This document shows, in pieces, positions 2,753-18,804 of a stretch of DNA of 64,000 nt. Each line of letters begins with the position of its first letter. Position 1 is the stretch's first letter. The notes beneath the pieces were generated by a model. It was not told where the DNA came from. It ran no database searches and saw only the letters and a list, made by a program, of their open reading frames with translations. The position numbers and the translations under genes are program-made. Where the stretch lies: the sequence record NC_019517.1; one strand, given 5' to 3'. Origin of the DNA: Escherichia phage FV3.

Positions 2753-5700
2753 TTACTTCAATTTTCCTTGTAACTCGGTAACAACCTCTGTTAGTTTTTT
2801 AACCTGTTCCTCAAGGGAGGTTATTCTATCATCTTGTTCTCTGCAAACCTGAACAAGCAATCCTGTTACAGCCGCATAGTCAACATTATAGAATCTTTCC
2901 TCGGTCATCAGAGGAATACCATCTTGAGTAGGACCAGGAACCTCTTTCCTTTTCACGAAAGAACCAACAGCTTCAGGTAATGCTTCCATGACCTCTTGAG
3001 CAATTACCCCCGCGTGAGGCATACCATTCTCTTTTAGAGTGTAGGTATAGCCCTTCATCTTACGGATAGCTTCCAGCGCGTTAGGAATAACCTCTATGTT
3101 ATCCTTCAGGTCACGGTCAGAGCTCTGGCTGACAGCGGTGCACTCTACTACGCCGTTGACAGCAAGGTACCTTGACTTGGCCTCATCTGTCTTAGCACCA
3201 CAATGCCATACCCAACTGGCAGATGTAGCGTTGTCGTTTATCTGGAACTCAAGCACGTTCTTCCTGTCTGCGCCATTACCCCAGTAGTACATTCTGCCTG
3301 TATTAGAAGGCATGTTGGAAGTGTTGGTAACATCAGTCCCGCCACCTGTATGTATCATGAACTCCGGGTCAAGATTGGAGCCTGCGGTTTTAAGAGTAAT
3401 TCCCTTACCACCAAGCTGCTGCCAAGGTCCCCATGTGAAAACACTACCTATTGTTGTTCCATAACGCAGGAATTTTTCCCCAAGATATGATATATACTCC
3501 TGTACGCAACTCTCTGGAACATTGGCGTAGTTCCTATACACTATAAGCGTACCTGCTCGGGAGCATGGGTAGTTTCTATCAGGTGTGGCTTGAGCATTGG
3601 CCTCCTGATGATAAAAACCTTCCCTATCCCCTTTGTAGTCGTTAAGGTCATTAATCCCTAGACCTTGCCCTCTGTGTTGTATGACCTTGTTCCACGCTCT
3701 ATGGTTACCACCCTCGATAGATCTGGTGTATAACTGATCAAGGCGGCCAGCCATTTGGAAAGCATAGTTTCCAGAGAACGCCACAGACAGTCCACCAACA
3801 ACCATCGAGCCCTCTGGTCCGTTAACATTACCCGCCATTATTTTTGACGGGTTATTAGACCCAAACTGGTTGTTCCAGTCTCCACCAGTATGACATACAA
3901 AACCACCAGGGGCCGAGAAAGTACCGTCTTTGTTGAAATTGTAGAATCTGTGAGCTGTGCCCACAACATCGCGAACAATAACTTGACCAGCTTCTGGGGT
4001 AGATCTGAACTCTGCCTGACCTTTGAGGCCAGCACCATTACCGCATTTAGAGGTAAACGTACCGTTAGTTAGATCCTCTGTTCCATCTGATGCACACTGG
4101 AATCCTGCATTAGAGAATAACGCCTTTCTAGGGCTGCCATAGCACAAATAGTCAATACCGTCAGCCCATAGTTCGACTTTAGGCATGTTCATTTTGCTCA
4201 TCACCGCATAGCGTTCAGCAGTGCCTATATAGTGCCACTGTGTGCCGCCGCCAGTGTAGAACCCAGAGGTACCTTTGAAGTCAACAACAGGTCTGGTGTT
4301 GGTATTGTCATCTCCAAGAACAGCAAGATTCAAATCTGCTGACTGGAGAGGCGCAACAAACTTAACACCGTCCTGATTGTCTGTTACAGCTCCGACCTGG
4401 TAATCTTGCTCTCTGGTAAACACTTCTACAACATTTCTACTTGCGTATACGCTGATAGGGAAAGCACGAGCCTCTGCATAGAAAGCAACATACTCTTGTT
4501 TACCCCTTGTTGGAGCAACCATTCCAAGAAGTGCTTTTTCATTTTGATAGAAATTTACTACCCCGTAGAAAGAATCTCCTCTATCTGTCCAACCACCAGT
4601 TCTATAGTGACACTGCAAGGTGGCGCAGTTCATAGGGTCACCGCCGGATGACGATCTGGTAACTAGGGTAATATCAGTGCCAGTTGTTGGAGCATAGTAC
4701 GGATCTGTTCTAACGATGATTGGGTAGTATTTCCCATCTTCCATCCCTGCAGTTCTTGGCAGTGTTAAGAAATCTTTGACACCCGCAGCTATAGGAACTT
4801 TGAACAGATTCTGAGCATCTGCCAGGGTTGTAGCCCCAGTGCCACCTGCGGCTTGAGGTAAAGGTTCCCACTTGGCCTTCCGGTTGTTATAAACACCCCA
4901 TTCTAGAGTACCATTACCGGATTCATCCATACCGCCATCCCAGACGACCATCTTAGCGGCTTTCTTGGAACCCCAGAACCCTCTTTCTGCCCCTGAACTA
5001 CGAATCCATTCCCCAAGTCCCCAGTTTGTCAGCTGACCCGTGAGATCCCCGACCTGCATGTACTTAGGACAATCTAATACACCATCTTCACGGAATCCTA
5101 AATACCGATGAGTTTCAGATCCTTTTGCGCCTTTGTGCAGGTGGACTGTTAACCAAGTCTTATTGTCGTTTCTTACCTCGGAGTAGATCCTATACCCATG
5201 CTCAAGGACACCGTCAGCACTGTATTTGTCCCCGTTAACAATACCTGATGCCGACTTAACATCAGCAGAGCTTTGAGACAGGTAAAGGTGCCCGAAGGTA
5301 GGGGAATTTCTAGACCCAAGACCGATGTGCGATCTAAAAGTATCATCGTTACGAGGTCTGACCATTGGCTGCCATGCAGTCCACTGGTTTGTGTTGGCCT
5401 GATAGGTTCTTAAATACCAAACATCTACGTTAGAGAATGGATAGTATTCCTGACGACAGCCAGTGCCACCGTTAGCATTGTTCTGCCAAACAATCAAGTG
5501 ACCAGCACCAGAACCTGCAGGATAACCATTTGCCTCAGTTGCATTAGCTGTCATCGGCTGGTAGTATATGCCGTCCTGATTACCAGTCAAGTTATTGATA
5601 TTGAAATTTGCCTCAAGGGCTGCACGTTGCTTATAGAAAGCACCGATATTGATACGGACTCCAGCGGCATCTCTGGCTCCTGTACCGCCTTGCTCTATAG

Positions 5701-6553
5701 CAAGAGGTTGCCACGAGGCTGTTTGCTGGTTCCACATACCCCAACGGCCTGTTGCATCAAGCTGCAAGTACCCTGCCGTGTTTAAATCATCTCCAGCACG
5801 GATAACTGTTCTTGTTGGGTTGTTTGCCTCCAGGCGTTTAAATTCATCACGAAGTGCTATTCTTTTTGTTGTTGCTACACCGTTGGTTACTGCAATGGTA
5901 TACATGGCTCCAGAGGTAGCGCCACGGAAAATACCATCAACAGTCGTAGTATCACGACGAGATACCACACCGTTCAAAAATTTTTCACCAGCTGCTTCAG
6001 AAGGGTAGTTAGTAGTTCTTCCCTCTTCAATAACTGCAGGACCAACAAAGTTGACAAGGTGAATAACATCGCCTACAGTATGCACTGTACCAAAATCTAC
6101 CCGCTGTGCAAGTGCTTTAGCATCGTTGGCTGTCTGAACCGTAACATCCATTACATCCTGGACAGACTGCCCTTCGGCTGTCATGATCATAGATGCGCCA
6201 ATGGTAGACTCCAACTCCTCCCTTAAGGACGGGTCTGTATATACCATCCATGCAGCATCAGTAATCCCACCATCAGAGTACGGTGAAGACAGTGCAGGCA
6301 CAGTGTGTGGAAATTCGCCTTTCCAACGCAGGTAGAGGTCTTCCTCTTCGAAGTAGGCAAAATCCATTGGGCCGTTTAACTTACCACCTTCCTTAAAGGA
6401 GATTACATGAGAAACAGTCCCATCCACATGGACAACATCGCCAATTTTTACACGACGGGTCAGGTCTGGTTGTTGAACAACCAGGTAATCATCCTCTGTC
6501 ACTGCGGTAGTGGCAGGAAGAGATTCAATTCTGACAACTTTAATATCAGCCAT
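2753..6553 (-). CDS. Long tail fibre protein with C-terminal intramolecular chaperone (peptidase S74-like) domain
   Basis: 1266-aa ORF; C-terminal about 130 aa carry the auto-processing chaperone signature (DRDLKDNIEV...GYTYTLKENG...AQEV...) followed by a coiled coil, as in T5 pb1 and endosialidase tailspikes; N-terminal about 85 aa homologous to N-terminus of ORF 9188..9856. Confidence 0.75.
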   Translation of the reverse strand: MADIKVVRIESLPATTAVTEDDYLVVQQPDLTRRVKIGDVVHVDGTVSHVISFKEGGKLNGPMDFAYFEEEDLYLRWKGEFPHTVPALSSPYSDGGITDAAWMVYTDPSLREELESTIGASMIMTAEGQSVQDVMDVTVQTANDAKALAQRVDFGTVHTVGDVIHLVNFVGPAVIEEGRTTNYPSEAAGEKFLNGVVSRRDTTTVDGIFRGATSGAMYTIAVTNGVATTKRIALRDEFKRLEANNPTRTVIRAGDDLNTAGYLQLDATGRWGMWNQQTASWQPLAIEQGGTGARDAAGVRINIGAFYKQRAALEANFNINNLTGNQDGIYYQPMTANATEANGYPAGSGAGHLIVWQNNANGGTGCRQEYYPFSNVDVWYLRTYQANTNQWTAWQPMVRPRNDDTFRSHIGLGSRNSPTFGHLYLSQSSADVKSASGIVNGDKYSADGVLEHGYRIYSEVRNDNKTWLTVHLHKGAKGSETHRYLGFREDGVLDCPKYMQVGDLTGQLTNWGLGEWIRSSGAERGFWGSKKAAKMVVWDGGMDESGNGTLEWGVYNNRKAKWEPLPQAAGGTGATTLADAQNLFKVPIAAGVKDFLTLPRTAGMEDGKYYPIIVRTDPYYAPTTGTDITLVTRSSSGGDPMNCATLQCHYRTGGWTDRGDSFYGVVNFYQNEKALLGMVAPTRGKQEYVAFYAEARAFPISVYASRNVVEVFTREQDYQVGAVTDNQDGVKFVAPLQSADLNLAVLGDDNTNTRPVVDFKGTSGFYTGGGTQWHYIGTAERYAVMSKMNMPKVELWADGIDYLCYGSPRKALFSNAGFQCASDGTEDLTNGTFTSKCGNGAGLKGQAEFRSTPEAGQVIVRDVVGTAHRFYNFNKDGTFSAPGGFVCHTGGDWNNQFGSNNPSKIMAGNVNGPEGSMVVGGLSVAFSGNYAFQMAGRLDQLYTRSIEGGNHRAWNKVIQHRGQGLGINDLNDYKGDREGFYHQEANAQATPDRNYPCSRAGTLIVYRNYANVPESCVQEYISYLGEKFLRYGTTIGSVFTWGPWQQLGGKGITLKTAGSNLDPEFMIHTGGGTDVTNTSNMPSNTGRMYYWGNGADRKNVLEFQINDNATSASWVWHCGAKTDEAKSRYLAVNGVVECTAVSQSSDRDLKDNIEVIPNALEAIRKMKGYTYTLKENGMPHAGVIAQEVMEALPEAVGSFVKRKEVPGPTQDGIPLMTEERFYNVDYAAVTGLLVQVCREQDDRITSLEEQVKKLTEVVTELQGKLK

Positions 6554-6588: not shown

Positions 6589-9186
6589 TTAAAGGTACAA
6601 TCCACGGTATTGAGCATAAAGTCCCAGACCGCGAAGGATTTCGCCAGAGTGATAGCCTACCGGATCAGAAACTGCCCAGCAGCCGTTTAAAACATTATCC
6701 CCGTTAATGAAGTGGTGCTTTTGCAGTAACTTCACACAGGCTTCTACAACAATATCTATTTGAGGTATTGTCTCTGAATACCCGCAAAGACCTAGCCAGC
6801 AGCAACCTGCAAGCCATTCACCTACCACCCACATCCTGTCACCTCTGTCTTGATAAGAATATCCTCCTGAGGTGTTAAAGTCTGTAGGGAGATTTCCGGA
6901 ATGAGATGACTGGAATCTGTTGAGGAACCATGCCCATTTCTGGCAGAACAGGAACAGTCTTTCGTCAACAGGTTCTTTATGTTTCTTAAGCTCATATAGT
7001 GTGCGGCACGCAGCAACAAAGGCTCTTGATTGGAGTTTAGAGTTATCTACCATCTCCCACCAACCAGTCAACCCTTCATTACCCCTCTGCCATACGTAGC
7101 GGGATGCAACTGGTCCTTCTGTTTTAAATGTGTTATTATACCAAACTTGGGAGTCGTACATAAATCCAATTGTATTTGCCAATCTTTGACGATCTATGTT
7201 TTCCGCACCCATACAGTAGACTACCGGATATTGCATTCCGGGATAGGGCCAATTTGGCCTTTCCTCTAGAAGATAATTTTCCTTATCTATCACCTTTCCG
7301 GCAGGGAACACACCTGGAGTGTGTCTGTATGCGCCTTGCTTGTAGTTTCTGACATAGCAATCACCAACCTTGGCGGTTGATTCTGTCTTGCTTGCCATCC
7401 ATACACTAAACCAGATCAGATAAGCATCTCTATCTGCAACATAAAATTGCGGCAGCGTGTTGACGCAATACAGATCGAACAAGCCATTGCCTATCTGCCT
7501 GTCGCTCAGACTGAAATCTACAGAGGTAATTCCTTTAGGGTTGGCAAAGAAAGGTTTAATCTCATCTTCTGTGTGATGAGGTTGTGTTGGATCTAGTTTA
7601 AAATCCCCTAGGGTAAGAGTTTCTGTTATCCATTGTCCGTTAGTGGCATATAGATCAGCATACCATAACCAACGGTCTTTGTCAAGAAATTTGACCCTTA
7701 CCATCTCATCATCTGATCGATAAGTTACTGAGTTTAAAGAAATCTCTCTTCCAAAATTGAAAGTTACTTTGCCTCTTACTATGTTGCAACGGGTGAAGTT
7801 GTCGGAGTGGTTGTAAATGTCGGTATCATACTGCATACTAACACTAGCGCCACCGCTTACGGCAATGTTTTCCTCTTTTGGCAAGAGATACGGGTTACCG
7901 TCTTTACCAACCACCTCTACGAAATCAGTAACTTTGGCAACTGTCTCTGTTACTTCTGACCCTCCAAAAGGGACCCCTATCCTATACTGTTTTTTGTTAT
8001 TGTTGCCATCATTAAGGATGAAATGTGGCTGGAACAGAACCCCCTCTCCTCCGAAATTCATAACAATTTCAGCATCTCTGCCTATCTTGTATGTAGTCCC
8101 TTTTTGGATTATTTCGCAAGGCTGGCGTGCGTTCATTCTAAAATTGATATACCCGTCGCTGTCCCTACTCATGACAGGAACTGTTCCTGCAACGAGACAA
8201 GTACCATCTGTGAACGGTGCCTTAATCAACGTGGTCTTTCTAAACAACTTGTCGTAGGCATTTATATCACTGAAATTAAGCAACTTGTTGTAAGACTGTT
8301 TAAACGCTGTGTAATACTTTTCCTCGCCTGTCAAAGTGTAGAGTTGATAACAAGCGTCACACCACATTTCTTCCCCGTCCAACTCTGGGGCTTGATTGTC
8401 TGCAACCACATTTATAGGGTTTACAATTACAGGGGATCCAGCAGGTATCACCGATCCACCCTGCTCTTGTGGCAATCTCACACAGTAGGTTACTTTGTGG
8501 CTGCCTGTAACACCCTTATCCTGCAGTTGGATTGTGCCGAACTCTGCAGACGTATGACCACTGTCGGCTATGCTACCGTTGGCCCAATAGCGGTTACCAT
8601 CCCATGCTATATACCACTCAACCCACCAACTCAATCCAGATGTTGTCCAATTTGGGTTAGCATCTGTGCCGCCGTAAACATCAGAGTCTACAGTGTTTCT
8701 TCCTAGCACACCGTTATACGCTTGGAATGCCTTGTCTAGGTATTCACCCCATGTCGGAGATCCAGCTGGGATTTTTCCTCTACCGTTGGTAAAAGACACC
8801 ACTACATCTTTAAACCCACCATGTGATGGAACCCCGTCTGTGGATAATGGGTAGTGGGACAATCTTTGCATTTTACTTTCTACTGCATATGCACCCAGAA
8901 GGTGACTGTTGTAGGCTTCCCAAGCTTCTTTGGCCCTATCTAGATAAAAATCGCTTTTCGATGCCCTGTATGCTTCAATGTATCCCAGAATCAACACAGC
9001 TTGAGCTTCATGCATTGCCCAATCATTATTTATCTTACTCCCTGACCAACCTGACGCTATAAGTCCATCCTGGTTTACCAGTTTGTTCTGCGTGGGGAGA
9101 TTGGTAATGCCTGTGTTATTATCGAGGCACTTCCTGTGCCCCTCAATCATCTGAAATACGTTATCAATATTGTGTTGAATACGCAT
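6589..9186 (-). CDS. Large tail fibre / tailspike-like protein (865 aa)
   Basis: Large ORF directly upstream of the long fibre gene in the tail block; Trp/Tyr/Gly-rich, consistent with a beta-rich receptor-binding or glycan-active protein; no motif confidently assigned. Confidence 0.45.
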   Translation of the reverse strand: MRIQHNIDNVFQMIEGHRKCLDNNTGITNLPTQNKLVNQDGLIASGWSGSKINNDWAMHEAQAVLILGYIEAYRASKSDFYLDRAKEAWEAYNSHLLGAYAVESKMQRLSHYPLSTDGVPSHGGFKDVVVSFTNGRGKIPAGSPTWGEYLDKAFQAYNGVLGRNTVDSDVYGGTDANPNWTTSGLSWWVEWYIAWDGNRYWANGSIADSGHTSAEFGTIQLQDKGVTGSHKVTYCVRLPQEQGGSVIPAGSPVIVNPINVVADNQAPELDGEEMWCDACYQLYTLTGEEKYYTAFKQSYNKLLNFSDINAYDKLFRKTTLIKAPFTDGTCLVAGTVPVMSRDSDGYINFRMNARQPCEIIQKGTTYKIGRDAEIVMNFGGEGVLFQPHFILNDGNNNKKQYRIGVPFGGSEVTETVAKVTDFVEVVGKDGNPYLLPKEENIAVSGGASVSMQYDTDIYNHSDNFTRCNIVRGKVTFNFGREISLNSVTYRSDDEMVRVKFLDKDRWLWYADLYATNGQWITETLTLGDFKLDPTQPHHTEDEIKPFFANPKGITSVDFSLSDRQIGNGLFDLYCVNTLPQFYVADRDAYLIWFSVWMASKTESTAKVGDCYVRNYKQGAYRHTPGVFPAGKVIDKENYLLEERPNWPYPGMQYPVVYCMGAENIDRQRLANTIGFMYDSQVWYNNTFKTEGPVASRYVWQRGNEGLTGWWEMVDNSKLQSRAFVAACRTLYELKKHKEPVDERLFLFCQKWAWFLNRFQSSHSGNLPTDFNTSGGYSYQDRGDRMWVVGEWLAGCCWLGLCGYSETIPQIDIVVEACVKLLQKHHFINGDNVLNGCWAVSDPVGYHSGEILRGLGLYAQYRGLYL

Positions 9187-13653: not shown

Positions 13654-15993
13654 TTACCAAAGATCTGTTGACATAAAGTTAATATCTTTGTTATTCTCCC
13701 ACTCAAGTTTTGCATCGAGTATTTTGCTAAACTCACCCTCATCTATTGAAATCGTGATTTTGCCATCACTGATCTCTAAAGGTAGCATTTCCATAGTTCT
13801 TAATTGAGAAGCAAAACCAGGGCCACCTGGCAACGGAAGAGTACCGCCCGGTAAGGTATCCAAAGGATCAACAAACCCGTTACCTCCCGATATGATATCT
13901 TTGCGAATCATATCGCTGATAGTATCCAGTTGCTGATTTCTCTCACTCAGTGGGTTGAAACGGTCATTAAATAACTCCCCGGCACTTAATATTGTACCGA
14001 TAATACCAAGCTTACCAAGCAGGCCAACTTTACCACCAGGTGTCTTGAGGCCACCTCCCCCTTTTCCTGCTGCACCCCCACCAGATCCTTCTGTGGTAGC
14101 TGCACCCGCTGCTGCTGCTCCAGCTGCACCTCTTAGAGAGCTAAGGAATTTGAAGGTTTTTACAAGCATAGATGCCATGACAAAACCTTTTGTCAGGGCG
14201 TTCACTACCAGCATGATGGCAGCAGCAAACCCTGCCCATTTAGCATAGCTAAAGGTGTCATGAAGCTCTTCAGAATATTCCTTCGTCTTAGCTGTTATGA
14301 ATCCCCATTTAATCCCCCATTCAAGGAAAAACATGCGGATCTTGACTATGGTATTGTTTAGTTCACCAATTACCCAGTTGAGACCTCTCACAAACCCACT
14401 AACAAAATCACCAGAGGCATCCCACACAAATTGCAAAGTCTCACCAGTGCGAATCAGTGTATAATAGAACTCTGTTAGTTCATCAGCCCAACGGGTGAAT
14501 AGTTTCTGACGAGACAGTTCGATGAAGGTTTTCAGTCGGTTTTCTGCCAGTACGTTAGACTTCTGCATTCTTTCATAACCAGCTGCAGATGCCTCGTTCA
14601 TGTACTTAGCCACATACTTCATGATCTTGGCTGTCTTAACCTCACCTTTCTTCATCATGTCCATGAACTGATCCATGGATAGTTCAGAAAGACCAAAAGC
14701 CTCTTTGGTGGCCTTGATAAAAGGTTCGTATGCACCGGGCAATGCTTCAGCAAGTTGTTGCTTCAGTTCTTCGGACATTACCTGTCCTTTACCGAGCATT
14801 TGCTGGATTGCCATAATGCCGCGCTGGTATTTTACCTCATCGGCACCATAAGCAGCAGCATACTGTGAGTATGCAGAGAATAGCTCATGCACCTCTTGAT
14901 TTGTCATCTGGTTTTTGGCGTTTACCGCCATCTGGGCGTAACCTTGAAGACCAGATTTGAGATCAAAACCAAGACGCATAGCCTCTTGCTGGACAAACGC
15001 AACCTCACTGTTGGCCTTGTTTGGATCTCCAGTAACAGCAGTAAGAGCAGCACTTGCCCCCTCCATCATGTGACCAGATCTGTTCACAGCAGTAAATCCA
15101 GAGAAAGCCGTATACGCAGCTGTTGCATTAATAACAGATCTACGTAAGTCTCTCATGGCATCGCCTAGTGTAAGCGTTTGGCTTGTAGCGCTTTTAAATC
15201 CAGACTGCAGAGCTGACAGGTGGGCGTTAAAGGTTGACTTTTTCATCTCCCCGCGAGCAAACCTGGACTCTAACTCTGAGTATCCTGGCAAGCTTCCACG
15301 GAATCCGGCCCCATACTTGGCAGAAAGTCTTATCGCAGAGTTGTATAGGTGGGTTCTCCTTGCCTCACGATCAGACATAAGCTTATTATCCATACCAGCT
15401 TTACTGTCTCTTCTTAGCTGTCTATGATAACGATTCATAGCAGCTGTCTGAGCTTTCACAAGGTTAGGGTCGGAAGCCACACCACCCATATTAGAGTTAC
15501 CAGGGATATACTTGAAAGATTTGGCATTAGCCAAAACTCTTGCCTTAGGTGCCTTATAACCGCCGTAAGACACTGGTGCAGATTTGGTAGCCTTTTTGGC
15601 CTCTTTAGCTTGCTGCTGGTAGAACTTACGCATCCTAGCCATTTCTGGATTTTTAGCGGTAAGATTACCCACAGCTTGTTTACGTCTCGCGTTCTCCCTA
15701 CGTTCTATTGCAGCCCTTACTGCAGCCTCTTTCTTGGCCTGTGCTACGCTCTCCCTGTGCAGTTTAGCATTTGCCTGAGATTGCTGTCTGGCAACCCGCT
15801 GCATTGTTTGCTGGGTTTTAACAGCCACTGCCTGCCATCTACTCATTGGGTTGGCTGAGTTAAAATCCTCGCCCAGTTTCCTGAACTCCCTCCCAATACT
15901 GCGAATTTTCTCTACAGCTTTTTTGTAGGAGGAGTTCTCTATCTCAAAGCCAATCTTGTTGACTGTTGTGGCAACTATTTTGTTTGTAGCCAT
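13654..15993 (-). CDS. Tail tape measure protein
   Basis: 779-aa ORF immediately downstream of the chaperone frameshift pair; long alpha-helical/coiled-coil composition with a Gly/Ala-rich segment (GAAGAAAAGAATTEGSGGGAAGKGGGG). Confidence 0.75.
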   Translation of the reverse strand: MATNKIVATTVNKIGFEIENSSYKKAVEKIRSIGREFRKLGEDFNSANPMSRWQAVAVKTQQTMQRVARQQSQANAKLHRESVAQAKKEAAVRAAIERRENARRKQAVGNLTAKNPEMARMRKFYQQQAKEAKKATKSAPVSYGGYKAPKARVLANAKSFKYIPGNSNMGGVASDPNLVKAQTAAMNRYHRQLRRDSKAGMDNKLMSDREARRTHLYNSAIRLSAKYGAGFRGSLPGYSELESRFARGEMKKSTFNAHLSALQSGFKSATSQTLTLGDAMRDLRRSVINATAAYTAFSGFTAVNRSGHMMEGASAALTAVTGDPNKANSEVAFVQQEAMRLGFDLKSGLQGYAQMAVNAKNQMTNQEVHELFSAYSQYAAAYGADEVKYQRGIMAIQQMLGKGQVMSEELKQQLAEALPGAYEPFIKATKEAFGLSELSMDQFMDMMKKGEVKTAKIMKYVAKYMNEASAAGYERMQKSNVLAENRLKTFIELSRQKLFTRWADELTEFYYTLIRTGETLQFVWDASGDFVSGFVRGLNWVIGELNNTIVKIRMFFLEWGIKWGFITAKTKEYSEELHDTFSYAKWAGFAAAIMLVVNALTKGFVMASMLVKTFKFLSSLRGAAGAAAAGAATTEGSGGGAAGKGGGGLKTPGGKVGLLGKLGIIGTILSAGELFNDRFNPLSERNQQLDTISDMIRKDIISGGNGFVDPLDTLPGGTLPLPGGPGFASQLRTMEMLPLEISDGKITISIDEGEFSKILDAKLEWENNKDINFMSTDLW

Positions 15994-16047
15994 GCTTTCC
16001 TCATAATAAAAAGGGCCAGATCCCAGAAAAGGAATCCGGCCCTTAGA

Positions 16048-16412
16048 TTATCCTCTCCTGCGCTTAGCTTTCGCAGCAGCTGCGGCAGCCTTCTGCTCCC
16101 GCTCCATTTCCCTGTTTTGGACGGTATCTAGGAATTCTTCGATATCAAGATACTCACAGAGCTTCAGGAAATACGCCATATCTGCAAGATTTAGCGATTC
16201 AAAATTTTCCCCTTTGAAATTCTTGAGCACCCTGCACCAAAGAAAGTCGAACCAGTTGAGTGAACTGTTCTTGGCTGCCCACTCACTGGCCCTCACAACA
16301 ACCTTGCTTATTCCTGCTCTTCCGGAGTCTGATCCAGATTGTTCACCTGCTGAATCATACCCATCTGCTGTAACATCTCCAGAAGGCTTCCTAAACCGTC
16401 TTGTGTGAAAAA
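16048..16412 (-). CDS. Tail assembly chaperone -1 frameshift extension (T-like part of G-T fusion)
   Basis: The -1 frame is open from 16419 to the stop at 16048 and overlaps the 3' end of ORF 16308..16781; slippery heptamer T_TTT_TTC in the upstream frame. The ORF-track start at 16296 is a GTG, so an independent start is unlikely. Confidence 0.5.
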
Positions 16413-16781
16413 ACAGCCGTAGTTAACCTCCAGAACCTTACCTGCCAGCTTAATCATCTCCAGCAGATGCCCTGCAAACACAACATCAGGGTTAAGCTTA
16501 TCCACACCATCCACGGTAATATCTTCGAACAAGATTTTAAATAACTCTTCGATAGAGTTATCATCAAGTTCTTGGAACAGGTAAGCCAGGGCTGTAGGAA
16601 GGACCTCTGCCATATTCTGACCGCCTGAGAGAATAGATCCACCGATAGCACCTAGCGGGACAGCTACAATCTTACCGATTTTAGGCATGTTTTTCATTGC
16701 TTTCATCGGTCCCCAGTGGGTGATCACAAAGTTGTGCCCTGCTAAATCAATCTCTGTTGTAGGTCTAAAGTTTATAGCCAT
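16308..16781 (-). CDS. Tail assembly chaperone (gpG-like)
   Basis: 157-aa ORF between tube-like gene and tape measure gene; contains a -1 slippery site near its 3' end. Confidence 0.55.
   Translation of the reverse strand: MAINFRPTTEIDLAGHNFVITHWGPMKAMKNMPKIGKIVAVPLGAIGGSILSGGQNMAEVLPTALAYLFQELDDNSIEELFKILFEDITVDGVDKLNPDVVFAGHLLEMIKLAGKVLEVNYGCFFTQDGLGSLLEMLQQMGMIQQVNNLDQTPEEQE
16406..16413 (-). other. Programmed -1 ribosomal frameshift slippery site (T TTT TTC)
   Basis: Minus-strand sequence TGT TTT TTC ACA in the chaperone frame (plus gaaaaaa at 16407-16413); shifting -1 reads FFHTRRF... into the 16048 ORF. Confidence 0.55.
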
Positions 16782-16824
16782 TTTATAGCATCCTTATTAG
16801 TCATGTTGTGCACCATATTTGTGT

Positions 16825-16853
16825 ATTTTACCATGATTATGGTGCATTGTCAA
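16825..16853 (-). promoter_or_regulatory. Sigma70-type promoter for tail chaperone / tape measure operon, with inverted repeat overlapping it
   Basis: Minus strand TTGACA (16853-16848), 17-nt spacer, TAAAAT (16830-16825); 9-bp inverted repeat TGCACCATA (16809-16817) / TATGGTGCA (16838-16846) straddles the -10 region. Confidence 0.55.
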
Positions 16854-16892
16854 TTTAACCTTTCAAGCAATTCAAGAACGTGTGTCAAAACC

Positions 16893-16925
16893 ATAAAAGC
16901 AAAAAGCCCCACCCGAAGGTGAGGC
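16893..16925 (-). terminator. Intrinsic terminator downstream of tube-like gene
   Basis: Stem gccccacc-cgaa-ggtgaggc (plus 16906-16925) followed on the minus strand by a U-tract (plus A-run 16897-16905). Confidence 0.55.
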
Positions 16926-16943
16926 CTATGCTAAAGTGTGCCC

Positions 16944-17417
16944 TTAGATAATACCTGCAAGACCTGCGAGGCCAGTGAGAGCACCAGTGATGTTGTCACG
17001 GTTGAGCCATGCATCCAGAATACCAATATCCCAGTCCAGTTGACCTACTTCGGTTCCGTAAGTCAGGTCAGGCTGCTTCTGAATCCAACCGATTGTGGAA
17101 ATACCAGGACCCTGGCTGCCCTCCAGCAGAACTGGGAAGAATACCAGACCAGTAATCGATGCCTGTTTCTGCCAGTCAGAGAGGTAAGCGTTCCATACAG
17201 AAGTGTTCTGCAAAGACACAGTCATAACACCTGATTGGTTACGAGACAGTGCCGCAGACATTTCGCCATCCACACCAACATGAGGGTAGATGTTGTCTTC
17301 GTTTCTTGAAACAACGATCTTGGTGTCAGCAGCGAAGCCAGTGACACGCTGCTGCATCAGATACAGTTTGACCTTTTTAGGGTCATACGCATAAGGAGTT
17401 AAAATTTGAGTTTCCAT
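16944..17417 (-). CDS. Putative tail tube protein
   Basis: 157-aa ORF directly downstream of the sheath-like gene and upstream of chaperone and tape measure genes; followed by a terminator. Confidence 0.45.
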   Translation of the reverse strand: METQILTPYAYDPKKVKLYLMQQRVTGFAADTKIVVSRNEDNIYPHVGVDGEMSAALSRNQSGVMTVSLQNTSVWNAYLSDWQKQASITGLVFFPVLLEGSQGPGISTIGWIQKQPDLTYGTEVGQLDWDIGILDAWLNRDNITGALTGLAGLAGII

Positions 17418-17427
17418 CTAGTCTTCC

Positions 17428-18804
17428 TTATTCAGTCATTGCAACAGCATTGGTGGATTTAGAACCAACTTTGTCCAGAAGGACGTTGATCCGGATACGA
17501 ACGAAGTGCAGGGCGTTGTTATACACCAGTTCCACTTTCACACCTTCCAGAACACGAGCAGCCAACTGATTGGTTGGGATCTCTGCACGTTTAGGAACTG
17601 TGATGATCGGGTCGTAGAACACATTGTTGTCTTCGTCAAAACCTGTCAGGATCGCGCCATTCTTAATGCCAGTATTGATCGGGTTGTTCATCAGAACAGA
17701 CTTGATAACCGGAAGATCATCATCAGACATCTTCATGCTTAAACCCATATTGGAGCGGCGATGCATGTACCCGAACATGGATTCTTCAGATCTGAACTTG
17801 ATCCAGTGTGCAAAACGAATAGCGTCTGCATACTGACCTGAAGCACACTTACCTTCCCAGAAAGCGCCAACACCGTTAATCATTCTGTAGAAGTTAACGT
17901 GGTTTTCCCAAATCGCCATACGCTGAGTCAAAGTCAGAGATGGTGCAATCACACCAGGCATCTGTTTTAAGTGCAAACTGTCACCGTAAGACGGGTCGTT
18001 GGATGCCATAGCACCTATGATACCACCCTCCGGAAAATCTTTATCCGCACGAGGATCGTACATGCCGACGCTATCATATTGTGCAGCCATCAGTTTGGTG
18101 GCGATGTTACTATCTTTGCCAGTCACATCTTCTGCCGTAGAGTAGACGTGCAGCTTGTAGTTGGCCTGAGCCCACTTAGCACATGCTTCAATGTCGGTGT
18201 GGTCTTCATGGCACAGGAAGTACCAATTGTCACGCTCAGCATTGATCTTATCAACTACTGTAGAAGGTTTTTCAGCATTGGCGATATTTTTGATTGTATA
18301 GTTACCAGTATGATAACCAACAGTACAGTCACCCGTGATGGTGAGAACACCGTCTTCAGCCGCTACAGTGATATCGTTCAAGCTATCATCTGCTTCAATT
18401 TTAGTCTTCATTGACTCTGCAATCTGAGTTGCACCTGTTCCACCAGAGATAGGCACTATCAGAGAAGTATTGTAGCTACCTTTTGCAATAGTCATTACGA
18501 CATCAGTATCAGCTGCGGCAGCAATACCTTTAAAATCTACAGTGGTTTTTTCTTTTGCCTGTCTGCCGATCATAACATACTGCGGAGGGAATACACCGCC
18601 GAAAGCTTTTGCTGCAAACTCATAAGCTGCAGAGCCTTGTGCGAAACCGTCTTCCACCATCTGATCCAGCTCCGCATATACGCGAGCTCGCTCAGTGAAG
18701 TTGTTGTGGATAGCGATGAACAGCGGAGTTTCGAAACCTACAGTGTCAATAGGCTGGGTTCCGAGGTTAACTGTAACATCTACCACTTTATCTAAATATG
18801 GCAT
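17428..18804 (-). CDS. Putative tail sheath protein
   Basis: 458-aa ORF preceding a small tube-like ORF; sheath-tube-chaperone-tape measure order typical of contractile tails. A major tail protein of another type cannot be excluded. Confidence 0.45.
   Translation of the reverse strand: MPYLDKVVDVTVNLGTQPIDTVGFETPLFIAIHNNFTERARVYAELDQMVEDGFAQGSAAYEFAAKAFGGVFPPQYVMIGRQAKEKTTVDFKGIAAAADTDVVMTIAKGSYNTSLIVPISGGTGATQIAESMKTKIEADDSLNDITVAAEDGVLTITGDCTVGYHTGNYTIKNIANAEKPSTVVDKINAERDNWYFLCHEDHTDIEACAKWAQANYKLHVYSTAEDVTGKDSNIATKLMAAQYDSVGMYDPRADKDFPEGGIIGAMASNDPSYGDSLHLKQMPGVIAPSLTLTQRMAIWENHVNFYRMINGVGAFWEGKCASGQYADAIRFAHWIKFRSEESMFGYMHRRSNMGLSMKMSDDDLPVIKSVLMNNPINTGIKNGAILTGFDEDNNVFYDPIITVPKRAEIPTNQLAARVLEGVKVELVYNNALHFVRIRINVLLDKVGSKSTNAVAMTE

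What the first reader, a model, noticed from the sequence alone, without database searches (positions are those of the whole stretch)
16048..16781. Canonical -1 programmed frameshift in the tail chaperone gene
The chaperone ORF contains the heptamer T_TTT_TTC in frame near its 3' end, and the -1 frame is open from there for about 120 codons to 16048, ending just before the tape measure gene. This is the conserved G/GT arrangement of tailed phages; the ORF track shows the downstream part as a separate GTG-initiated ORF, which is probably an artefact.
Basis: partly seen in the sequence, partly recalled or inferred. Interest (0 to 1): 0.35.

Follow-up and report, generated by a model that had tools for sequence, protein, structure and literature searches.

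The report
Tail chaperone -1 frameshift, rV5-like phage
This rV5-like E. coli phage very probably makes a short and a long form of its tail assembly chaperone by letting a few ribosomes slip back one base at T_TTT_TTC; this is the ordinary G/GT trick of tailed phages, which public records of this phage group do not annotate.

Summary
The window is a Vequintavirus (rV5-like myophage). On the minus strand the order is sheath, tube, tail assembly chaperone (16781..16308, 157 aa, Pfam Phage_TAC_15), a -1-frame ORF ending at 16048, then the tape measure gene. T_TTT_TTC (16413..16407) is the only in-frame X_XXY_YYZ heptamer in the gene. It lies 3 codons after the last -1-frame stop, and the -1 frame then runs 119 codons, predicting a 244-aa fusion.

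All 24 distinct sequence contexts from about 15 lineages (down to 24-30% protein identity) keep NNT TTT TTC while neighbouring synonymous sites vary. Every homologue examined keeps the -1 frame open to just before the tape measure gene, except one cut by a contig end. That frame evolves as coding sequence. In at least 10 of 22 lineages no start codon precedes its conserved block, so independent initiation does not explain it. One homologue (Barbavirus) has G_GGA_AAG instead, which points to ribosomal rather than transcriptional slippage. No conserved downstream RNA structure was found.

The same site is annotated as ribosomal slippage in Mooglevirus Michonne and was argued for in Pakpunavirus in 2025. 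None of the 19 rV5/phi92-group records I inspected annotates it. This is an ordinary mechanism and a useful annotation correction.

The parts
16308..16781 (-). Tail assembly chaperone, short form ('G'/TAC-N), 157 aa, ATG 16781, stop 16310..16308
   Evidence: ORF list and translation. Pfam Phage_TAC_15 84.5 bits (cut-off 22) and phrog_3840 E 6e-69.
16407..16413 (-). Slippery heptamer T_TTT_TTC (tgT TTT TTC; Cys123-Phe124-Phe125), the proposed -1 shift site
   Evidence: It is the only in-frame X_XXY_YYZ in the gene. TTT TTC is invariant in 24 distinct contexts; the preceding codon is TGT, CCT or AGT but always ends in T. U_UU.U_UU.C is in the efficient class of -1 motifs measured in E. coli (PMC4066793).
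16048..16407 (-). -1-frame extension ('T' part): 119 codons read after the slip (HTRRFRKPSG...KAKRRRG) plus stop 16050..16048
   Evidence: Translation. phrog_10409 matches at E 8.5e-51. In relatives, differences at codon positions 1/2/3 of this frame are 188/142/795, with 662 synonymous against 264 non-synonymous codon changes. Alignment A3 shows a conserved block, KNSSLxWxDYL...LLKLNEYLD.
16423..16425 (-). Last stop codon (TAA) of the -1 frame upstream of the shift site; sets the 5' limit of the shift window
   Evidence: Three-frame translation and frame analysis.
16427..16431 (-). Internal Shine-Dalgarno-like GGAGG, 13 nt upstream of the heptamer; a possible but unproven stimulator
   Evidence: Read from the sequence. 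It lies within the 6-17 nt range in which SD-like stimulators were sought in PMC4066793. It is only partly conserved in relatives: GGAGG, GGAGA, TGAAG, TGAGG, CAGGT.
16294..16296 (-). GTG that gene callers use as the start of a separate 82-aa ORF; probably not a functional start
   Evidence: Only an AAGG lies upstream. The start is not conserved: in at least 10 of 22 lineages no ATG/GTG/TTG precedes the conserved T block. Database ORF calls for this region start at query positions 20 to 79.
16011..16044 (-). Terminator-like hairpin plus T run between the T stop and the tape measure start (context)
   Evidence: 14-bp stem with T tail. The equivalent position carries a hairpin plus T run, with different stem sequences, in the seven Vequintavirinae loci folded.
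16825..16853 (-). Sigma-70-like promoter (TTGACA-17-TAAAAT, TG extended) upstream of the chaperone gene (context)
   Evidence: 11 of 12 consensus positions match. Phage Gotham's record carries a predicted promoter at the same place.
16904..16927 (-). Terminator-like hairpin after the tail tube gene (context)
   Evidence: It is annotated as a terminator in Gotham.
13654..15993 (-). Tape measure protein gene (779 aa), the presumed client of the chaperone
   Evidence: Pfam TMP_3 E 2e-18; phrog_5255 at 1127 bits.
16944..17417 (-). Tail tube gene (157 aa), the presumed binding partner of the T part
   Evidence: Pfam KPP10_Orf10 and phrog_280. Annotated as tail tube in rV5-type records. Identified as tube protein gp52 in rV5 virions (PMC3606486).

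Best explanation
The tail assembly chaperone gene is decoded in two ways.

Most ribosomes read 16781..16308 and make the 157-aa short form. A minority slip back one base when tRNA-Phe occupies both the P and A sites on U_UUU_UUC (16413..16407). They then continue in the -1 frame to 16048 and make a 244-aa fusion. The fusion consists of the first 125 chaperone residues, a Gly/Ser-rich linker and a conserved C-terminal domain of about 80 aa.

By analogy with lambda gpG/gpGT, the shared N-terminal part would coat the tape measure protein. The C-terminal 'T' domain of the rare long form would recruit the tail tube protein. Both forms would leave before the tail is finished.

What is shown: the heptamer, the open -1 frame, their deep conservation, the coding-type evolution of the -1 frame and the lack of a conserved start. 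What is inferred: that ribosomes do slip here, the ratio of the two products, and which partners they bind.
For: **Anatomy.** establish the ORFs, the heptamer and the frames.

**Identity and gene order.** Sheath, tube, chaperone and tape measure genes lie in that order.

**Conservation of the site.**
- All 14 annotated relatives from other genera, at 24-62% identity in the T part, have an in-frame heptamer and a -1 frame open 74-98 codons past the G stop.
- All 35 IMG/VR loci found by a degenerate peptide scan have T_TTT_TTC in the same phase. In 34 of them the -1 frame stays open 82-92 codons past the G stop; the 35th is cut by a contig end.
- Across 24 distinct contexts, TTT TTC is invariant. 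The preceding codon encodes Cys, Pro or Ser but always ends in T. Neighbouring Val/Ile, Tyr and Gly codons vary synonymously.

**The -1 frame is coding.** Substitutions fall 188/142/795 on its codon positions 1/2/3.

**No conserved start.**

**Ribosomal rather than transcriptional.** The Rheinheimera Barbavirus homologue lacks the T run and has the lambda-type G_GGA_AAG two codons downstream, with the same -1 continuation. Aeromonas phage 4L372D has a hairpin 9 nt after the heptamer.

**Motif efficiency.** U_UU.U_UU.C is experimentally shift-prone in E. coli, at more than 0.1% without stimulators, and belongs to the most efficient class (PMC4066793).

**Annotation in relatives.** The homologous aGT TTT TTC site is annotated 'ribosomal slippage' in Citrobacter phage Michonne. 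Felixounavirus CL1, with one extra T, reads straight through as a single 213-aa ORF.

**Function by analogy.** The lambda G/GT roles and the 30:1 ratio come from PMC5009743.
Against: There is no direct evidence for the fusion protein in any rV5-like phage; the rV5 genome and proteome paper mentions neither a frameshift nor a chaperone.

I found no conserved downstream stimulatory structure:
- RNAalifold predicted 0 pairs.
- The window's downstream folds have z-scores of -1.25 and +0.84.
- The mean z-score across lineages is about 0 for 45 and 70 nt.

The efficiency may therefore be low. The upstream GGAGG is not universally conserved.

A run of six T could also support some RNA polymerase slippage, which would give the same protein.

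The window has a GTG with a weak AAGG at 16296, so some independent initiation in this lineage cannot be excluded.

Homology of the T domain to the Ounavirinae T part is not statistically established: hhalign gave E 0.016 and probability 2.8%.
Confidence: 0.85

Rival explanations
1. Transcriptional slippage. RNA polymerase occasionally adds one extra U while copying the T6 run. A subset of mRNAs then carries U7 and is translated normally into the same 244-aa fusion.
For: - The site is a homopolymer run, and selection for T at the wobble position of the preceding codon would equally serve run length.
- No conserved ribosomal stimulator was found.
- A DNA-level T7 variant (phage CL1) gives the fused ORF.
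- Runs of A or T are known slippage sites (PMC5009743).
Against: - Bacterial transcriptional slippage is described for runs of about 9 A or T, whereas this run is 6 in every lineage and never longer.
- The run always ends in C, giving a perfect X_XXY_YYZ in phase.
- The Barbavirus homologue replaces it with G_GGA_AAG, which has no homopolymer run suited to polymerase slippage.
- The Aeromonas homologue has a hairpin 9 nt downstream, the geometry expected of a ribosomal stimulator.
- U_UU.U_UU.C is a measured ribosomal shift motif in E. coli.
Confidence: 0.07
2. Two separate genes. The downstream ORF is translated on its own from GTG 16296 as an 82-aa protein, and the heptamer is incidental.
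For: - Gene callers and most GenBank records annotate it this way.
- phrog_10409 is an 82-aa family.
- A weak AAGG lies 5 nt upstream of the GTG.
Against: - The start is not conserved. In at least 10 of 22 lineages no ATG/GTG/TTG precedes the conserved SLxWxD block.
- Annotated ORFs range from 43 to 102 aa and start at different places.
- The -1 frame stays open for 27-51 codons upstream of the G stop in all lineages, back to the heptamer. A separate gene has no need for this.
- The heptamer is invariant at synonymous sites.
Confidence: 0.05
3. Nothing functional. The long -1 ORF and the heptamer are coincidences, and the region between the chaperone and the tape measure gene is non-coding.
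For: Several RefSeq and GenBank records leave the region unannotated.
Against: - Substitutions are strongly biased to the third codon position of the -1 frame, and synonymous changes are in excess.
- The amino-acid block is conserved down to 21-26% identity.
- No relative has a stop in this frame.
Confidence: 0.02

Closest known systems
Lambda gpG/gpGT and the conserved tail-chaperone frameshift of dsDNA phages (Levin 1993; Xu, Hendrix and Duda 2004, 2013, 2014; cited via PMC5009743 and PMC8785237)
   Same: - Two overlapping ORFs lie between the major tail (tube) gene and the tape measure gene.
- An X_XXY_YYZ heptamer sits in the overlap.
- There is a short product and a -1 fusion.
- The downstream ORF has no start of its own.
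- There is no obvious downstream RNA stimulator; that lambda also lacks one is from my own recall, not checked here.
   Different: - The heptamer differs: T_TTT_TTC here, G_GGA_AAG in lambda.
- The host phage is a contractile-tailed myophage.
- The chaperone belongs to Pfam Phage_TAC_15. I did not test sequence similarity to lambda gpG or gpT.
- The shift site is 32 codons before the G stop.
- A terminator-like hairpin separates the T stop from the tape measure gene.
Annotated ribosomal slippage in the tail assembly chaperone of Citrobacter phage Michonne (Mooglevirus, NC_028247.1), and the Felixounavirus homologues
   Same: - The site has the same sequence and phase (aGT TTT TTC within ..NFGSFF.., against ..NYGCFF.. 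here).
- The gene order is the same.
- The N-terminal chaperone parts are detectably homologous (tblastn E 7e-5 to CL1).
   Different: - The T part is shorter (about 93 aa) and abuts the tape measure start.
- Its homology to the rV5-group T part is not established (hhalign E 0.016).
- That group is at least sometimes annotated with the slippage; the rV5/phi92 group was not in 19 of 19 records inspected.
Proposed -1 frameshift at the invariant GTTTTT motif of TAC-N in Vandenendeviridae (Pakpunavirus Adele) and Andersonviridae (PMC12846349, Dec 2025)
   Same: - The argument and the signature are the same: a poly-T motif near the 3' end of TAC-N, and an uninterrupted -1 frame through what is annotated as intergenic or hypothetical.
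- That paper places those clades as relatives of Vequintavirinae and Stephanstirmvirinae.
   Different: As far as I could read, that paper did not examine the chaperone locus of Vequintavirinae or Stephanstirmvirinae. I did not fetch Pakpunavirus sequences to test site homology directly.
T7 gene 10A/10B -1 frameshift (Condron et al. 1991, cited in PMC8785237)
   Same: The A-site tetramer U_UUC is decoded by tRNA-Phe. This is from my own knowledge of the G_GUU_UUC site.
   Different: It is a capsid gene, with a different P-site codon and a different biological role.

Membership tests
Phage tail assembly chaperone G/GT arrangement (Xu et al. 2004 type) | Two overlapping ORFs located between the major tail/tube gene and the tape measure gene | tested here: met
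   Tube 17417..16944, G 16781..16308, -1 ORF to 16048, tape measure gene from 15993.
Phage tail assembly chaperone G/GT arrangement (Xu et al. 2004 type) | A slippery sequence inside the overlap that allows re-pairing in the new frame | tested here: met
   T_TTT_TTC at 16413..16407, three codons after the -1 frame opens. It is the only such heptamer in the gene.
Phage tail assembly chaperone G/GT arrangement (Xu et al. 2004 type) | The arrangement (site plus open second frame) is conserved in relatives although the sequence has diverged | tested here: met
   14 of 14 annotated relatives keep the site and the open frame. All 35 IMG/VR loci keep the site, and 34 keep the open frame; the 35th is cut by a contig end. 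The heptamer is the same in 24 of 24 distinct contexts.
Phage tail assembly chaperone G/GT arrangement (Xu et al. 2004 type) | The downstream ORF has no translation start of its own | tested here: met
   At family level, no start codon precedes the conserved block in at least 10 of 22 lineages. In this window a GTG with a weak AAGG exists, so it is not strictly excluded for this genome.
Phage tail assembly chaperone G/GT arrangement (Xu et al. 2004 type) | Both a short product and a frameshifted fusion are made, at a fixed low ratio | not testable with these tools
   This needs proteomics or a reporter assay.
Phage tail assembly chaperone G/GT arrangement (Xu et al. 2004 type) | Both products are required for tail assembly and absent from virions; G binds the tape measure protein and T binds the tube protein | not testable with these tools
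   The only weak consistency is that the virion proteins named in the rV5 paper's main text do not include the chaperone.
Pfam PF21822 Phage_TAC_15 | Whole-protein score above the curated gathering threshold | tested here: met
   84.5 bits against a cut-off of 22, covering residues 15-129.
Stimulated -1 PRF signals (IS3/dnaX type: heptamer + spacer + downstream hairpin or pseudoknot, and/or upstream SD) | A stable or conserved RNA structure 5-9 nt downstream of the heptamer | tested here: not met
   Folds of the window give z-scores of -1.25 and +0.84. RNAalifold on 12 lineages predicts 0 pairs. The mean z-score is about 0 for 45 and 70 nt in 24 loci. Only Aeromonas phage 4L372D has such a hairpin.
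Stimulated -1 PRF signals (IS3/dnaX type: heptamer + spacer + downstream hairpin or pseudoknot, and/or upstream SD) | An internal Shine-Dalgarno-like sequence 6-17 nt upstream | tested here: inconclusive
   GGAGG lies 13 nt upstream in the window. It is present in some relatives and degraded in others, and it overlaps conserved Leu-Glu-Val codons.
Programmed transcriptional slippage sites | A homopolymeric A or T run of about 9 or more | tested here: not met
   The run is exactly 6 T in all T-run lineages. The length criterion is from PMC5009743.

The most novel reading that the evidence does not exclude
The shift site is an ancient feature of one large myophage supergroup: Ounavirinae, Vequintavirinae, Stephanstirmvirinae, Plateaulakevirus and probably Vandenendeviridae. 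It is frozen inside the peptide motif N-[YF]-G-[CPS]-F-F.

On this reading it works without any conserved RNA stimulator. Its efficiency would be set by something not yet described for GT sites, for example the nascent peptide or the partly conserved upstream SD-like element.

In Vequintavirinae this would be combined with conserved terminator-like hairpins before and after the G/GT unit, which would set the tube : G : GT : tape-measure stoichiometry at the transcript level.
Probability: 0.15. Interest if true: 0.4.

Novelty: new member of a known kind. Interest (0 to 1): 0.22.

Why it matters
**Annotation.** None of the 19 Vequintavirinae, Stephanstirmvirinae, Plateaulakevirus and Barbavirus records I inspected, RefSeq entries included, annotates the fusion. 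About 300 nt is either left blank or called as hypothetical ORFs of assorted lengths. These phages are widely used in therapy and biocontrol collections and in cryo-EM studies, so a correct chaperone annotation is useful.

**Biology.** The result extends one homologous T_TTT_TTC site across several myophage subfamilies. It also gives one clear case of slippery-site turnover, to G_GGA_AAG in Barbavirus.

It does not change what is known about tail assembly.

Tried and rejected
- **Downstream stimulatory structure.** Single-sequence folds of 67 and 107 nt, RNAalifold on 12 lineages and z-scores for 45, 70 and 100 nt in 24 loci showed nothing conserved. The 100-nt windows show a mild mean z of -1.1, which I do not interpret. 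The long-range GCCUUCUGGAG/CUCCGGAAG pairing in the window starts 19 nt after the heptamer and is not conserved.
- **Natural in-frame G-T fusions.** A word-index search gave 3 short hits. An exhaustive phmmer search of the T part gave 17 hits. The true relatives are all short ORFs. The long hits are LRR/DUF285 repeat proteins and were rejected as repeat-summed noise.
- **Structure prediction of the fusion.** Only a single-sequence run was allowed. It gave pLDDT 37.5 and pTM 0.22, which is unusable, so I made no fold search.
- **Solved-structure relatives of G by profile.** None was found below E 0.1.
- **Homology of the T parts of the rV5 group and Ounavirinae.** hhalign gave E 0.016 and probability 2.8%, which is inconclusive.
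- **Literature on an rV5, Vequintavirinae or Certrevirus chaperone frameshift.** Nothing was found in the rV5 paper, the phiTE cryo-EM paper or the CB7 paper.
- **Other shift sites or frames.** There is no other in-frame heptamer, and the +1 frame closes after 19 codons.
- **Promoter-like element upstream of G.** It is unique in the window.

Full report
**What the window is.** The 1.1-kb region around the finding is 95-99.8% identical to 116 records of Vequintavirus (rV5-like) E. coli myophages; the best match is Escherichia phage EPFV3-03/2025 at 99.8%. All relevant genes are on the minus strand:
- tail sheath, 18804..17428 (phrog_205);
- tail tube, 17417..16944 (Pfam KPP10_Orf10, phrog_280);
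- a 157-aa ORF, 16781..16308;
- a -1-frame ORF ending at 16048;
- the tape measure gene, 15993..13654 (Pfam TMP_3, phrog_5255).

**Checking the observation.** The 157-aa ORF is a tail assembly chaperone. Pfam PF21822 Phage_TAC_15 scores 84.5 bits against a gathering threshold of 22, and phrog_3840 matches at E 6e-69.
- The sequence ggc tgT TTT TTC aca places T_TTT_TTC at 16413..16407 in the zero frame, at Cys123-Phe124-Phe125. It is the only in-frame X_XXY_YYZ in the gene.
- The -1 frame is closed by TAA at 16425..16423, three codons upstream. It is then open for 119 codons to the stop at 16050..16048.
- A -1 slip on the heptamer therefore predicts a 244-aa fusion of 125 + 119 residues.
- The +1 frame is closed after 19 codons.
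- The distal 82 codons are what the ORF list shows as a GTG-initiated ORF (16296..16048). This matches phrog_10409, an 82-aa family of unknown function.
- The heptamer is 32 codons before the G stop, so 'near the 3' end' is approximate.
- Of 91 ORFs of at least 100 aa in the window, three combine a -1 extension of at least 50 codons with an in-frame heptamer in the overlap: the chaperone and two plus-strand ORFs that I did not assess.

**Comparative test: annotated relatives.** tblastn with the predicted fusion finds both halves, as two pieces in different frames, in 354 phage records at 80% coverage or more. I fetched representative loci and analysed the frames.
- Every relative has an in-frame heptamer and a -1 frame that is open 27-51 codons upstream of the G stop. 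It then continues 74-98 codons beyond that stop.
- In most relatives this frame ends just before the tape measure gene. Aeromonas 4L372D has a 320-nt gap there, and Barbavirus has an intervening gene.
- The heptamer is T_TTT_TTC in all the taxa listed except Barbavirus, which has a different heptamer (described below).
- The taxa covered are Avunavirus, Seunavirus, Henunavirus, Mydovirus-like, LTH01, Certrevirus, Phapecoctavirus, Justusliebigvirus (phi92-like), KP2025, Aeromonas Plateaulakevirus and Rheinheimera Barbavirus.

**Comparative test: metagenomic relatives.** A scan of IMG/VR used a peptide pattern that fixes Phe-Phe, back-translated into degenerate DNA. It returned 35 confirmed relatives.
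- All 35 have T_TTT_TTC in the same phase.
- In 34 of them the -1 frame stays open 82-92 codons past the G stop. In L031 the frame runs to the end of a 5.4-kb contig.

**Codon-level conservation.** Across 24 distinct 36-nt contexts the two Phe codons are always TTT TTC. The preceding codon encodes Cys, Pro or Ser but is always TGT, CCT or AGT. The flanking Val/Ile, Tyr and Gly codons vary synonymously. This is nucleotide-level selection on the heptamer, not on the protein.

**Is the second frame really coding, and does it have its own start?**
- In pairs of relatives at 80-99.5% nucleotide identity, differences downstream of the G stop fall 188/142/795 on positions 1/2/3 of the -1 frame. There are 662 synonymous and 264 non-synonymous codon changes.
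- Inside the overlap, the most variable position is the third position of the G frame.
- The T part aligns across all lineages with a conserved block, A-x-x-Y-A-x-K-N-S-S-L-x-W-x-D-Y-L ... L-L-K-L-N-E-Y-L-D.
- In at least 10 of 22 lineages no ATG, GTG or TTG in that frame precedes this block.
- GenBank ORF calls for the region start at scattered positions and give 43-81 aa.
- An exhaustive phmmer search of 1.84 billion representatives finds only short ORFs of 43-102 aa, starting at query positions 20 to 79.
- Independent initiation therefore cannot produce the conserved domain across the family. The GTG at 16296 is lineage-specific.

**Ribosome or RNA polymerase?** Sequence alone cannot fully separate a ribosomal -1 slip from the insertion of one U by RNA polymerase on the T6 run. 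Four observations favour the ribosome:
- The Barbavirus homologue has no T run (Cys-Leu-Thr replaces Cys-Phe-Phe). Two codons downstream it carries the lambda-type G_GGA_AAG in phase, followed by the homologous -1 continuation.
- Aeromonas phage 4L372D has a 9-bp hairpin starting 9 nt after the heptamer, with only 2 of 200 dinucleotide shuffles folding as well.
- The run is exactly six T followed by C in all lineages and is never longer. Bacterial transcriptional slippage is described for runs of about nine (PMC5009743).
- U_UU.U_UU.C was measured as frameshift-prone in E. coli. It belongs to the most efficient class (H_HH.U_UU.Y), shifts at more than 0.1% without a stimulator, and is used by IS elements (PMC4066793).

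**Stimulators.** I found no conserved downstream structure.
- The window's 67-nt and 107-nt folds are unremarkable, with z-scores of +0.84 and -1.25.
- RNAalifold on 12 lineages predicts no pairs.
- Mean z-scores over 24 loci are about 0 for 45 and 70 nt.
- A GGAGG lies 13 nt upstream of the heptamer (16431..16427). This is within the 6-17 nt range in which SD-like stimulators were sought in PMC4066793. It overlaps conserved Leu-Glu-Val codons and is degraded in several lineages.
- 'Canonical' therefore applies to the heptamer and the gene arrangement, not to a full heptamer-spacer-structure signal.

**Mechanism (inferred).** By analogy with lambda (PMC5009743), the abundant short form and the N-terminal part of the rare fusion coat the tape measure protein. 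The -1-encoded T domain binds the tube protein and nucleates its polymerisation. Both chaperone forms are absent from the finished virion.
- The linker after the slip site is Gly/Ser/Asp-rich and variable in length, as expected of a tether.
- None of the binding steps was tested here.
- The single-sequence AlphaFold model was unusable, with pLDDT 37.5.

**Comparison with what is known.** The G/GT frameshift is textbook (Xu et al. 2004, cited).
- The homologous site, aGT TTT TTC in ..NFGSFF.., is annotated as 'ribosomal slippage' in Citrobacter phage Michonne, a Mooglevirus.
- A December 2025 paper argues for a conserved -1 frameshift at an invariant GTTTTT in the chaperone of Vandenendeviridae and Andersonviridae. 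It names Vequintavirinae as a related clade (PMC12846349).
- I found no paper that describes the frameshift in rV5-like, Certrevirus or phi92-like phages.
- None of the 19 records of those groups that I inspected carries a joined CDS. Five of them leave the region unannotated.
- The finding is therefore a correct but ordinary call: a new, unannotated member of a well-known kind.

**Verdict.** My confidence that a -1-frame fusion is made from this site is about 0.9 (0.85 ribosomal, 0.07 transcriptional). Interest is low (0.22). The value lies in correcting annotation and in documenting one deeply conserved site, with one instance of slippery-site replacement.

Noticed in passing
window 16011..16044 (-); equivalent positions in L004, L006, L007, L008, L009, L010: A strong terminator-like hairpin (14 bp plus T run) sits in the 54-nt gap between the T stop and the tape measure start codon. 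A hairpin plus T run occupies the same place, with different stem sequences, in the seven Vequintavirinae loci folded. It is absent in the two phi92-group loci folded (ZCKP1, PD06), where the gap is only 19-20 nt. It might attenuate transcription into the tape measure gene.
   Followed up: partly
window 16782..16943 (-): The 162-nt spacer between the tube and chaperone genes holds a terminator-like hairpin (16927..16904). It also holds a near-consensus extended -10 sigma-70 promoter (16853..16825, 11 of 12 positions). A perfect 9-bp inverted repeat brackets the -10 element: TGCACCATA at 16846..16838 and TATGGTGCA at 16817..16809. The promoter-like sequence is unique in the window.
   Followed up: partly
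L017:1530 (Escherichia phage CL1, OK040806.1): This Felixounavirus record has seven T where its relatives have six: 641 nt against 642 nt across 250+ records. The chaperone therefore reads as one 213-aa ORF, equivalent to the fusion, and no short form is encoded. This is either a homopolymer sequencing error or a natural fusion-only mutant.
   Followed up: partly
L016:1524 (Rheinheimera phage Barba30A): This homologue has lost the T run and uses the lambda-type G_GGA_AAG two codons downstream, a case of slippery-site turnover. In this phage a reverse-strand 'putative DNA binding protein' gene is inserted between the T ORF and the tape measure gene.
   Followed up: partly
L015:1528..1554 (Aeromonas phage 4L372D): A 9-bp hairpin (CUGAACCAG/UUGGUUCAG) starts 9 nt after the heptamer. 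It is the only lineage in the set with a canonical-looking downstream stimulator. The gap from T to the tape measure gene is unusually long here (320 nt).
   Followed up: partly
one search hit list (e.g. MG065646.1, MG065647.1, MG065654.1): Eighteen records named 'Campylobacter phage', with host Campylobacter jejuni, match this rV5-like E. coli phage region; those listed are 98.6% identical. This is an odd host label for a Vequintavirus. It could reflect contamination or mislabelling in that submission series.
   Followed up: no
window 5649..6008 (+) and 7817..8257 (+): These two plus-strand ORFs of 119 and 146 aa also have long -1-frame overlaps containing in-frame X_XXY_YYZ heptamers: TTTAAAT and AAATTTT in the first, TTTTTTG and CCCTTTT in the second. 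I did not check whether they are real genes or which strand is coding there.
   Followed up: no
proteins P0010, P0012, P0016: The T part gives weak multi-stretch phmmer hits (E 1e-5 to 1e-3) to large LRR/DUF285 repeat proteins. Pfam shows these are leucine-rich repeats, so the hits are most likely summed repeat noise rather than homology.
   Followed up: yes
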